In this document: piece by piece, positions 182 to 51,902 of the stretch
Layout of the letters: each line of letters opens with the position of its first letter
Position numbering within the stretch: the first letter of the stretch is position 1
Assembly (NCBI GenBank): GCA_951406725.2
Contig: OX597825.1
Coordinates: forward strand, 10,292,001 to 10,356,000
Length of the DNA: 64,000 bases
DNA from: Octopus vulgaris
Taxonomy: Eukaryota
Direction: 5' to 3'
Notes under the pieces: model-generated
Databases searched by the model: none
What the model was told of the DNA's origin: nothing
What the model saw: only the letters and a program-made list of their open reading frames with translations
Program-made: the position numbers and the translations under genes

Positions 182-478
182 CTTATAAATAAGGACAAAC
201 GAAAAAAATTTCTAATGCCAAATATGCCGAAAATTGGACATATTGTCCATTTACCATATAATTTTTTCCCAGCACGCACGCTACTCGAAAAAAGGTCGAC
301 AGAAGTCTCTAAAAAATCCATTATTACCATAATTTTTAGAAATTTTTTTAGAGATTTCTATCGACCTTTTTTCGAGTAGCGTGCGTACTGAAAAGAATTA
401 TATGGTAAATGGACAATATGTCCAACTTTCGGCATATTTGGCATTAGAAAATTTTTCGTTTGCCCTTATTTATAAGTT
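180..478. repeat. Long imperfect inverted repeat (~135-bp arms, ~25-bp spacer) next to (TA)n
   Basis: AACTTATAAATAAGG...CTCGAAAAAAGGTCGA (from 180) is mirrored by TCGACCTTTTTTCGAG...CCTTATTTATAAGTT (ending 478). Confidence 0.92.
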
Positions 479-32663: not shown

Positions 32664-32709
32664 AACACAACGTTTCGGCTGATATACCCTCCAGCCTTCA
32701 TCAGATATC
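32664..32709 (-). ncRNA. Minimal type I hammerhead ribozyme motif with canonical core
   Basis: GAUAU-CUGAUGA-A-GGCUG-GAGGGUAUAU-CAGCC-GAA-ACGU-U-GUGUU; helix I held partly by G.U pairs. Confidence 0.75.
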
Positions 32710-33243: not shown

Positions 33244-34028
33244 GGCGACGAGCTGGTAGAAACATTAGCACGCCGGGCGAAATGCGTAGCCGTATTTCGT
33301 CTGCCGTTACGTTCTGAGTTCATATTCCGCCGATATCGACTTTGCCTTTCATCCTTTCGGGGTCGATAAATTAAGTACCAGTTGTGCACTGGGGTCGAAG
33401 TAATCGACTTAATCCGTGTGTCTGTCCTTGTTTGTCCTCTCTATGTTTAGCCCCTTGTGGGTAGTAAAGAAATAGGTATTTCGTCTGCCGTTACGTTCTG
33501 AGTTCAAATTCCACCGAGGTCGACTTTGCCTTTTATCCTTTCGGGGTCAATTAAGTAAGTACCAGTTACGCACTGGGGTCGATTTAATCGACTTAATCCG
33601 TTTGTCTGTCCTTGTTTGTCCCCTCTGTGTTTAGCCCCTTGTGGGTAGTAAAGAAATAGGTATTTCGTCTGCTGTTACGTTCTGAGTTCAAGTTCCGCCG
33701 AGGTCGACTTTGCTTTTCATCCTTTCGGGGTCAATAAATTAAATACCAGTTATGCACTGGGGTCGATGTAATCAACTTAATCCGTTTGTTTGTCCTTGTT
33801 TGTTCTCTCTGTGTTTAGCCCCTTGTTGGTAGTAAAGAAATAGGTATTTCGTCTGCCGTTACGTTGTGAGTTCAAATTCCGCCGATGTCGACTTTGCCTT
33901 TTATCCTTTCGGGGTCAATTAAATAAGTACCAGTTACGCACTGGGGTCGAGGTAATCGACTTAATCCGTGTGTCTGTCTTTGATTGCCCCCTCTGTGTTT
34001 AGCCCCTTGTGGGTAGTAAAGAAATAGG
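33244..34028 (+). mobile_element. SINE-A tetramer: one tRNA-like head plus four 184-bp body units
   Basis: Unit starts at 33292, 33476, 33660 and 33844, end at 34028; flanking duplication CATATATGATAAACAT at 33220-33235 and 34034-34049. Confidence 0.93.
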
Positions 34029-49730: not shown

Positions 49731-50958
49731 AACACTTAATGGTTGTAACTAGATTGTAACTAGTAGAGAGGTGGTGAGCTGGCTGAATCGGCAGCTCATT
49801 GGACAAAATATTTAGCGGCATTTCTTCCAGATCTTTTCGTCAAGATTTTAAATTCCGTTGAGGTCGAGCTCGCCTTTCATCCATTCAAGGTTGATAAAAT
49901 AAGTACAAGTTGAGCAAAGAGGTCGATGGAATACACTAAATAGCCTCTTCCTAAAATTGCTAGCTTTGTGCCAAACTTTTAAACTATTATTATGATTATC
50001 TTCATTATTGCTGTTGTTGTTGTTGTTTCGTCTTTCTTCTGTTGTTGTCTTTGTTATTTTTGCAGAAATGATTTCACGCGAATCAAGCCATTCGCAATCA
50101 GAAACAATTTATTTTTGCGGCAACCATTTACAAAATTATTAATCGTTGTTGGTTTTTGCGGTAATTTTCAGAGTGTACCATTCATAAGAATGCGTCAATT
50201 GCTCGTTAAAAGTTATCTATGTACTGAAGCACCACGAAAACAGAATTCCCATCACAAAGACTTTATCAGAATACTAAAACCAAAAACAACCCCAAGCATA
50301 ATAAACGTGTCTGCCGTATTGTCTCTGGTTCTCTTAATCTTCGATACATGTCCGCCTCTACACTACACTGCCCTCCTTTGTTCTCTCTCTTATCTGACTA
50401 TATAGCTTCCTTATCTTCTGTCTAGTTCCCTTCATACATAATCGATCTTATTTTACTCTCTATCTCTCCATCTATCTTTCTCTATTGCTGTCTCTTTTGC
50501 TTTACGTACGTACATTTATACTATACTTAAATACATTTTTAGACCATACCGTTATGCCAATAATAATTGGTGCACTTAATTATGTTGCTAAATGCCTAAG
50601 TAACAGTCTGAAAAAAATGGGGTTTTCAGAGAAAAAAAAACCAACCAACAGGCACATTAAAAATACGATTTGTAAGTGGAAGAATAAAAACATGCAAGAC
50701 TTTCTTCATGTTCAAGAAGCCTATAGAATAAGTACCCGTCTTAAAAGAAAAGCGTCGATTTACTGGGGTCGATTTACTCGACTAAAACCCTTCAAGGTTG
50801 TGTCCCAGCATGGCCGAAGTTCAATGACCATTCTGTCTAAATAATGGAACTGCAGATACAATATCCCTGCATATCTAACCTCTGTTCTCATTCCTCCACT
50901 TCACTCTGTATATCATATCTTATCTAGAATAATTATTGCTTAATCCTTTTCTCACACC

Positions 50959-51006
50959 GTCTCCGATGACGGGATGTATAAAATATCCCGGAAACTGCTG
51001 TAAGAC
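50959..51006 (+). ncRNA. Hammerhead ribozyme motif (CCGAUGA core variant)
   Basis: GUCU-CCGAUGA-CGGGAUGU-AUAAA-AUAUCCCG-GAA-AC-UGCU-GU-A-AGAC; 8-bp helix II, 4-bp helix I. Confidence 0.7.
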
Positions 51007-51311
51007 CTTCTCTTTATAAATGTTCTGAAATCTTTTCACAGCCTTGGGTTTTTATCTCATTCTGTTAACTTTTTTATATATATACCCATGGTGATATATG
51101 ATCTACGATGGACACCTCATTCGCATAATCACCGAACCTGGAGCTTAACTATAGTCTGTCCATAGCACTTACTCAGCTTTGCCTGACACCTTTGGGTCTT
51201 CTTGACACCATTACCTCTCATAACCTATATATATAACACCAGTCGTTTTTTTTTTCTCCATCTCTTGTTGCCCACTTTGGGATCTTTCTTTCCTCTCTCT
51301 TCCTTCTTTAT

Positions 51312-51346
51312 GTTTCCGACGAAGAGCTCCGCTCGAAACGTCATAC
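51312..51346 (+). ncRNA. Minimal hammerhead-like motif (CCGACGA core), same family as 11457
   Basis: GUUU-CCGACGA-A-GAGC-UCC-GCUC-GAA-ACGU-C-AUAC; downstream sequence resembles 11500-11790. Confidence 0.55.
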
Positions 51347-51594
51347 CTTCCTGCTTCCATATTTCCTGAGCGCCTATTAATAATAATACTGTAATTGTTC
51401 CACGTGTTGTTGTTTTTTTGTTTTCCCGTTTGGATTAAAATTATATATATATATATATATATATTGTATATAATTAATTTGTTCAAAGGAAAAAAATTAT
51501 TTTCGAATTCTTTTCTTTTATGAGGTTTTCACGCTAACTACCCGATAATTTCTTGTTAAGATTCCTTATTAAGAGGTTATCCTCAATTGTTAAA

Positions 51595-51647
<53 letters not shown>

Positions 51648-51651
<4 letters not shown>

Positions 51652-51775
51652 ATATGTTACATTTACTCAATAGTCAGGATAAAACTCTGAGTTTCAGATG
51701 CCGTAGTGGAAATCCACAACACCATCTCTTCGGTTATCTGGCCATCTGACTATTGAGTAAATGTAACATATTATT
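51648..51775 (-). ncRNA. Hammerhead-like motif (51678-51738) enclosed by a perfect 30-bp inverted repeat
   Basis: IR AATAATATGTTACATTTACTCAATAGTCAG at 51648-51677 and 51746-51775; minus strand GAUAA-CCGAAGA-GAUG..GUGG AUUU CCAC..CAUC-U-GAA-ACUCAGAGU-U-UUAUC. Confidence 0.6.
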
Positions 51776-51846
51776 TTATAGATAAATTTCCTCTATTTAC
51801 ATAATATTGAGGTCTCTTTCTTTCTTTTGTTATCTTACCGTTTTTA

Positions 51847-51902
<56 letters not shown>

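What the first reader, a model, noticed from the sequence alone, without database searches (positions are those of the whole stretch)
50830..51900. Chain of three different hammerhead-bearing units in 1 kb, all with U4C cores
The motifs at 50959 (+), 51312 (+) and 51678 (-) have unrelated helices, each unit ends at a (TA)n run, and all read CCGANGA rather than CUGANGA (as does 11457). Recurrence across unrelated families, against the usual CpG decay direction, suggests a tolerated natural variant. The third is enclosed by a perfect 30-bp inverted repeat, so that duplication is probably young.
Basis: partly seen in the sequence, partly recalled or inferred. Interest (0 to 1): 0.7.

Follow-up and report, generated by a model that had tools for sequence, protein, structure and literature searches.

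The report
C4-core hammerheads in Penelope-like retroelements
Three stacked tail fragments of jumping genes each carry a hammerhead-shaped RNA motif with C in place of a normally fixed U; whole subfamilies (hundreds to thousands of copies) share this letter next to U-bearing sister subfamilies, so it is likely a tolerated, probably slower-cutting natural variant that the usual search pattern misses, though cutting is untested.

Summary
The kilobase is a stack of 5'-truncated Penelope-like element (PLE) 3' ends inserted into each other's (TA)n tails. Units 1 and 3 have Hydra-clade features; unit 2 is Neptune-type. Each carries a minimal type I hammerhead with CCGANGA. C4 is not a private mutation. 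For the unit 2 type the genome holds 9,250 C4, 4,975 U4 and 303 CpG-decay control matches. In all three families position 4 tracks subfamily markers, so both U4 and C4 masters amplified. In family 3 the change ran U to C while 7 of 8 other CpGs were lost. A young C4 subfamily kept 25 of 25 motif letters while 57 of 138 flank letters changed. A coral-type relative in metagenomes shows the same split (44 C4, 86 U4). Two other families here stay U4, so this is not host-wide. The 30-bp inverted repeat is the ordinary PLE 5' inversion. U4C is known from one viroid, and this scan noted it before in phage DNA. I did not find it described for PLEs, but could not read one key paper. Cleavage is untested.

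The parts
50714..50828 (.). Old fragment of a different interspersed repeat (SINE-like by recall) directly upstream of unit 1
   Evidence: About 70-74% identical hits in 40 own-genome loci; boundaries from blast starts and ends
50827..51233 (+). Unit 1: 5'-truncated 3' end of PLE family 1 (Hydra-like), about 89% identical to other copies, ending in a short (TA)n
50959..51006 (+). Hammerhead 1: stem I GUCU/AGAC, core CCGAUGA (C4 = 50964), GUA triplet, predicted cut after 51002. This copy has a private change that breaks the family's 8-nt stem III palindrome
51235..51443 (+). Unit 2: 3' end of PLE family 2 (Neptune-type), very young
   Evidence: 9 other loci 100% identical over 191 bp among the 40 scored; full-length relative L092
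51312..51346 (+). Hammerhead 2: core CCGACGA (C4 = 51317) plus an extra A, stem II GAGC/GCUC, 4-nt palindrome, GUC triplet, predicted cut after 51342; stem I has 3 of 4 pairs
51467..51594 (+). Fragment of a fourth repeat between TA runs; no hammerhead found in it
   Evidence: 85% and 90% identical copies in L012 and L198
51649..51749 (-). Unit 3, inverted 5'-truncated copy carrying the hammerhead
   Evidence: 98% identical to family copies
51678..51738 (-). Hammerhead 3: stem I GAUAA/UUAUC, core CCGAAGA (C4 = 51732), extra U before G12, near-palindromic stem III, GUU triplet, predicted cut between 51683 and 51682
51747..51850 (+). Unit 3, direct 3' end of PLE family 3 (Hydra-clade features); with the inverted copy it makes the 30-bp inverted repeat 51648-51677 / 51746-51775
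   Evidence: 100% identical to several copies; coding relatives L093, L097, L340
11457..11491 (+). C4 hammerhead of a deeper subfamily of the unit 2 group

Best explanation
The three motifs sit in the end repeats of three Penelope-like retroelement families whose truncated tails are stacked in (TA)n runs, and their C4 core, shared by amplified subfamilies, is likely a tolerated hammerhead variant that would still cut, more slowly, when two motifs pair. Shown: element identity, insertion anatomy, subfamily-level U4/C4 split, and conservation of the motif within a C4 lineage. Inferred: in tandem transcripts two motifs pair through the palindromic stem III into a double hammerhead; a protonated C4 would stand in for U4 in the U-turn at some cost in rate; PLE processing needs only slow cleavage, so masters flip between U and C at this position. 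The three window copies themselves are truncated and have no same-family partner beside them, so they are probably inert passengers.
For: Counts: unit 2 type C4 9,250, U4 4,975, CCAA control 303. Family 3, first 100 of 5,101 matches: 76 C4, 20 U4, 4 other (counted by eye). Family 1, first 100 of 295: 48 CCG, 39 CTG, 11 CCA, 2 other (counted by eye). Position 4 tracks diagnostic sites; fewest state changes on trees were 11, 5 and 3 for families 1, 2, 3 against shuffled minima of 15, 18 and 13. Family 3 majority lines: 8 CpG in U4 and 1 in C4, with core, stem I and outer stem II unchanged. Young versus older C4 in family 2: 0 of 25 motif letters and 57 of 138 flank letters differ. N17, not fixed by the pattern, was U or C in 30 of 30 C4 copies. 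A C4 tandem array has four motifs and two intact 717-aa frames (L340). Coral-type motif in 120 metagenome loci: 44 C4, 86 U4; 36 of 42 C4 against 2 of 80 U4 carry one downstream marker, and stem I is intact in 36 of 44 C4. For a typical family 1 copy the double-hammerhead dimer is within 0.2 kcal/mol of the best dimer fold. A viroid U4C variant loses much in vitro activity but stays infectious (PMC3088659). A protonated C can replace U in a riboswitch U-turn (PMC4105743).
Against: No cleavage data. In a type III hammerhead deep scan, all single mutants of the CUGA turn had low activity (PMC9901934). PLE minimal hammerheads are already very slow with U4 (PMC4209133). The young unit 2 subfamily has a U-U mismatch in stem I, and its active dimer is predicted about 23 kcal/mol above the best fold; the older C4 copy is about 17 above and family 3 about 11 above. 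In family 2, 11 of 30 C4 copies have only 3 of 4 stem I pairs, against 5 of 30 U4 copies. Families 1 and 3 carry an extra base before G12. The family 2 samples were chosen by a pattern that fixes the motif, which inflates apparent conservation. Direction is resolved only for family 3 and rests on assuming CpG loss; in family 1 many U4 copies are simple decay. The one full-length family 2 copy examined (L092) has frameshifts.
Confidence: 0.58

Rival explanations
1. Catalysis is relaxed: C4 motifs barely cut or do not cut, and the motif is kept for another job such as RNA dimerisation or binding by the element's reverse transcriptase, or simply hitchhikes on successful masters.
For: CUGA-turn mutants have low activity. 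Weak stem I and poor predicted dimer fold in the youngest unit 2 subfamily. Craig et al. found no canonical hammerhead in the very successful Naiads and raise the idea that hammerheads merely parasitise PLEs. An unchecked scan note (e1-8672774) reports a family spreading after catalytic changes.
Against: The variation seen follows catalytic rules (N7 free, N17 = U or C, the rest fixed). Position 4 varies almost only U/C in amplified lineages: A or G at 4 was 1 of 100 in each. The same single change recurs in the coral-type family with the helices intact.
Confidence: 0.25
2. C4 is favoured because it removes a misfold in which the CUGA strand pairs with stem III or the cleavage strand; it trades chemistry for folding.
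For: With 8-nt flanks, natural C4 copies gain from C more than natural U4 copies do: median ensemble shift 1.86 vs 0.55, 0.64 vs -0.02 and 1.43 vs -1.45 kcal/mol in families 1, 2, 3. In family 3, C4 goes with CUCAGAG (12 copies against 1 with CUCGGAG), and U4 mostly with CUCGGAG (9 against 3).
Against: With 20-nt flanks the effect disappears in families 1 and 3. There is no difference in the coral-type family, where U4 copies keep the trap. Copies are not independent, and U to C tends to reduce pairing anyway.
Confidence: 0.12
3. A host process makes or repairs C4: A-to-I editing of the antisense arm of inverted copies yields T to C in masters, or C-to-U editing restores U4 in the RNA.
For: Inverted copies would form double-stranded RNA. 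An unchecked scan note (e1-8666291) reports an ADAR-hyperedited PLE array in this genome.
Against: No cluster of T to C changes between the U4 and C4 majority lines of family 3. U4 copies group by subfamily rather than scattering among C4 copies. Two families in this genome stay U4. The split also occurs in other animals' DNA.
Confidence: 0.05

Closest known systems
Minimal type I hammerheads of metazoan Penelope-like elements (Cervera and de la Pena 2014, PMC4209133; read: main text parts 1-2 of 4, whole supplementary PDF as text)
   Same: In pseudo-LTRs; short stem I; palindromic stem III for dimers; extra base after A9 in families 1 and 2; G10.1-C11.1; mostly single truncated copies. The unit 2 motif closely matches their Acropora Neptune example.
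   Different: Core CCGANGA. Their descriptor required 'cuganga', and every representative legible in Fig. S3 has U4. Families 1 and 3 also have an extra base before G12.
U4C viroid hammerhead (Ambros and Flores 1998; seen only as cited in Perreault et al. 2011, PMC3088659, passages and section 8)
   Same: Same core substitution; reported as much slower in vitro but sufficient in vivo.
   Different: There it is a rare variant of a canonical viroid ribozyme. Here it is the majority state of large retroelement subfamilies in minimal dimer-type motifs.
Hydra-clade PLEs (Craig et al. 2021, PMC8557442; read: section 11, passages, supplement searches)
   Same: Family 3: single ORF, unit about 2.6 kb, RWK, DKT, CxCX5C linker, CxxC and CxH, C-terminal GIY-YIG, (TA)n targets. 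Family 1 fragments show similar motifs.
   Different: Their hammerheads were found with the canonical descriptor. The first supplement hits for ccgatga, ccgaaga and ccgacga lay outside the hammerhead table.
Non-LTR retrozymes (Li, Clavereau and Pollet 2026, bioRxiv 10.64898/2026.07.22.740005; read part 1 of 5)
   Same: Hammerhead-bearing repeats derived from PLEs.
   Different: The window units are different truncated ends of coding families, not tandem copies of one non-coding unit.

Membership tests
Minimal type I PLE hammerhead (Cervera 2014) | Core CUGANGA | tested here: not met
   CCGANGA in all three; filed as a variant, not a canonical member
Minimal type I PLE hammerhead (Cervera 2014) | GAAA box and NUH cleavage triplet | tested here: met
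   GUA, GUC, GUU
Minimal type I PLE hammerhead (Cervera 2014) | Stems I and II of 3-8 bp, G10.1-C11.1 | tested here: met
   Met for family-typical copies; unit 2 stem I has one U-U mismatch and window copy 1 has a private outer C-G pair
Minimal type I PLE hammerhead (Cervera 2014) | Palindromic stem III segment | tested here: met
   8-nt palindrome in family 1 (broken in the window copy), 4-nt in family 2, 9-nt with a central mismatch in family 3
Minimal type I PLE hammerhead (Cervera 2014) | Located in the pseudo-LTR of an RT plus GIY-YIG element | tested here: met
   L092, L093, L097, L340 and L396-L419; Pfam hits are weak, below cut-off
Minimal type I PLE hammerhead (Cervera 2014) | Self-cleavage as a dimer | not testable with these tools
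   Only assembled contigs were available, no raw RNA reads
Hydra-clade PLE (families 1 and 3) | RWK, DKT, CxCX5C linker, CxxC and CxH, length under 3 kb, (TA)n target | tested here: met
   Family 3 all present; family 1 from decayed fragments only
Hydra-clade PLE (families 1 and 3) | Placement in an RT tree with reference Hydra elements | not tested
Neptune-clade PLE (family 2) | DKG motif, CX2-5CxxC linker, C-terminal GIY-YIG | tested here: met
   DKGG, CSRSRCNTC, YVGQT in L092
Neptune-clade PLE (family 2) | Separation from Nematis by RT phylogeny | not tested
   Both clades have the linker; the Neptune label rests on likeness of the motif to the Acropora Neptune hammerhead and on recall
Non-LTR retrozyme | Tandem non-coding units, each with a hammerhead | tested here: not met
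   Three different families; coding full-length relatives exist

The most novel reading that the evidence does not exclude
Position 4 of PLE hammerheads is a recurrent U/C switch under selection. In two PLE clades in this genome and in a coral-type family, C4 lineages arose separately from U4 relatives and, in the three window families, came to match or outnumber them, because a slower or less misfolded ribozyme (protonated-C U-turn) favours transposition. Censuses based on CUGANGA have missed a large share of animal hammerheads, about two thirds for the unit 2 type here.
Probability: 0.3. Interest if true: 0.7.

Novelty: new variant of a known kind. Interest (0 to 1): 0.45.

Why it matters
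What PLE hammerheads do, and how much cleavage transposition needs, is open. Sister subfamilies with U4 and C4, in one genome and in several families, are ready-made natural pairs for that test, including a C4 tandem array with intact reading frames. In practice, descriptors that fix CUGANGA miss 9,250 of 14,225 unit 2 type motifs in this genome. The single substitution itself is already known from a viroid and recurs in this scan's phage notes, which limits the surprise.

Tried and rejected
Rfam found no hammerhead family here; the listed hits are microsatellite or hairpin artefacts. 'C4 is private decay' was rejected. 'U4 copies are only CpG decay of C4' was rejected for families 2 and 3 (4,975 vs 303) and is only partly excluded for family 1. 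'Host-wide C4' was rejected: the family at window 47660 is U4 in 58 of 58 (57 with G5) and the family at 32704 reads CTG in 93 of the first 100 of 2,195. A scan of 484 kb (42 arbitrary or flanking 10-kb stretches plus the window) gave 9 U4, 5 C4 and 2 U3-A8-like motifs, 3 of the C4 being in the window; too few for rates. The misfold hypothesis was not robust to flank length. Expression: no RNA holder listed; contigs only, so no ends or strand. The higher contig depth over the unit 2 motif than over its flanks is not a copy count. I glanced at 5' ends of 30 family 1 copies for starts at the cut site and saw about 2 near it, uninformative. I first took families 1 and 3 for Nematis by recall and dropped that after matching Hydra features. 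Literature: 'hammerhead' + 'CCGANGA' gave 0 papers; 'hammerhead' + 'U4C' gave 4, one relevant; searches listed no paper on C4 in PLEs. Luense et al. 2017 (about small PLE hammerhead variants) and Ambros and Flores 1998 were not available to read; the former may already show C4. bioRxiv supplements were not seen.

Full report
Setting. The window is G000:C12:10292001-10356000 of a 2.8-Gb, microsatellite-rich animal genome. It looks octopus-like by recall of its repeats and by earlier scan notes; I did not test this.

Observation. Each motif has the order stem I, CCGANGA, stem II, GAAA, short stem III, NUH, stem I. Shuffles give 0.03 such motifs per window. The perfect inverted repeat is 30 bp. 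Rfam reports no hammerhead here.

What the units are. Each is a multi-copy family: 2,962, 1,671 and 687 first-look candidates, 40 scored each. Unit 1 (50827-51233) is about 89% identical to its relatives and ends at a short TA run. Longer copies carry decayed RT and endonuclease sequence about 28-45% identical to family 3. Unit 2 (51235-51443) begins in that TA run and is identical over 191 bp to 9 other loci. A full-length relative, L092, has two end repeats 4.6 kb apart around an RT with DKGG and YIDD, a CX4CxxC linker and a GIY-YIG domain, with frameshifts; this is Neptune-type. Unit 3 is a direct 3' end (51747-51850, +) plus an inverted 5'-truncated copy (51749-51649, -) that holds the hammerhead. 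That arrangement is described as typical of PLE insertions (PMC8557442) and recurs in family copies. L340 is a head-to-tail array of 2.58-kb units with four C4 motifs and two intact 717-aa frames. Its RWK, DKT, CxCX5C, CxxC and CxH motifs match the Hydra clade. The RT regions of families 2 and 3 barely align (25% over 99 aa, E 0.04). A fourth repeat fragment lies at about 51467-51594. The chain is therefore explained by repeated insertion into (TA)n; that unit 1 came first and unit 2 later is inferred from divergence.

C4 versus U4. Among the close relatives printed, C4 was the majority in all three families. Genome-wide exact patterns for the unit 2 type gave 9,250 C4, 4,975 U4 and 303 for the other-strand CpG decay product. 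U4 is 16 times the control, so both states were amplified. Family 3 gave 76 C4, 20 U4 and 4 other in the first 100 of 5,101 matches. Family 1 gave 48 CCG, 39 CTG, 11 CCA and 2 other in the first 100 of 295. With position 4 masked, its state tracks other diagnostic sites and clusters on trees: 11, 5 and 3 changes against shuffled minima of 15, 18 and 13 for 59, 80 and 52 rows. These samples mix best blast hits and pattern hits, so they do not date the subfamilies. In family 3 the U4 majority has 8 CpGs and the C4 majority 1; assuming CpG loss, the path ran U4 to C4. In family 2 most C4 copies nest within U4 copies, but deeper subfamilies show both states, so the position has flipped more than once. 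Family 1 is mixed: one U4 clade plus decay. Two other hammerhead families of the window stay U4.

Outside this genome. They hold 86 U4 and 44 C4 motifs; C4 goes with one downstream marker (36 of 42 against 2 of 80 distinct flanks) and stem I is mostly intact. So C4 subfamilies are not confined to this host.

Is the motif still constrained? The young unit 2 subfamily differs from older C4 copies at 57 of 138 flank letters and 0 of 25 motif letters; most of the older copies were picked by a pattern that fixes the motif, so this is an upper view. N17 was U or C in 30 of 30 C4 copies. Between the family 3 majorities, the core, stem I and outer stem II are unchanged. Against this: stem I of the youngest unit 2 subfamily has a U-U mismatch, and nearest-neighbour energies put the active dimer far above the best fold for families 2 and 3, though at the best fold for family 1.

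Mechanism. Inferred: tandem transcripts bring two motifs together through the palindrome, as proposed for PLE hammerheads (PMC4209133; PMC6765202). The hammerhead has a U-turn, and a protonated C can replace the U of a riboswitch U-turn (PMC4105743); applying this to C4 is my inference. U4C is reported slower in vitro yet viable in a viroid (PMC3088659), and CUGA-turn mutants were low in a deep scan (PMC9901934). I put tolerated slow cleavage at 0.58, relaxed catalysis at 0.25, misfold relief at 0.12 (positive with 8-nt flanks, lost with 20-nt flanks in two families and absent in the coral type) and host editing at 0.05.

Papers seen. PMC4209133: main text parts 1-2 and the supplement. PMC3088659: passages and section 8. 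PMC8557442: passages, section 11 and supplement searches. PMC6765202: passages and section 11 part 2. PMC11167929 and the 2026 retrozyme preprint: first part only. PMC9901934, PMC4105743, PMC10085705 and PMC8490949: passages. Luense 2017 and Ambros 1998: nothing beyond citations.

Novelty. The substitution is known from a viroid, and unchecked scan notes report it in phages. The published PLE surveys I could read fixed 'cuganga' in their descriptors, and my searches found no account of C4 in PLEs. Verdict: a real, new variant of a known kind; interest 0.45.

Noticed in passing
window 47660 (-): U4 hammerhead with a 6-bp stem I and a 6-nt palindrome; 58 exact-pattern matches, several in same-strand pairs about 350 bp apart, possibly a small retrozyme-like family
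   Followed up: partly
window 32704 (-); L172, L421-L440: Fourth minimal hammerhead family, 2,195 matches, 93% CTG in the first 100, with a few C4 copies
   Followed up: partly
L340 1128-8445: Head-to-tail array of a Hydra-like PLE with two intact 717-aa frames and identical C4 motifs; its RT motif reads YKDD
   Followed up: partly
L091 1-8001: Tandem duplication of about 3 kb containing a unit 2 family end, a LINE-like 3' fragment and TA runs hundreds of bases long
   Followed up: no
window 33292-34028: Four tandem copies of a 184-bp SINE-like unit, 90% alike
   Followed up: no
window 225-435: Long hairpin of about 210 bp, MITE-like; scored to a plant miRNA model well below its cut-off
   Followed up: no
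L176, L179, L186, L188, L163, L198: Further hammerhead families in arbitrary genomic stretches, including one U3-A8-like core
   Followed up: no
window 51735-51749 and family 3 loci L061-L089: Many family 3 inverted copies begin at nearly the same point, 11-16 nt upstream of the core, suggesting a preferred switch site
   Followed up: no
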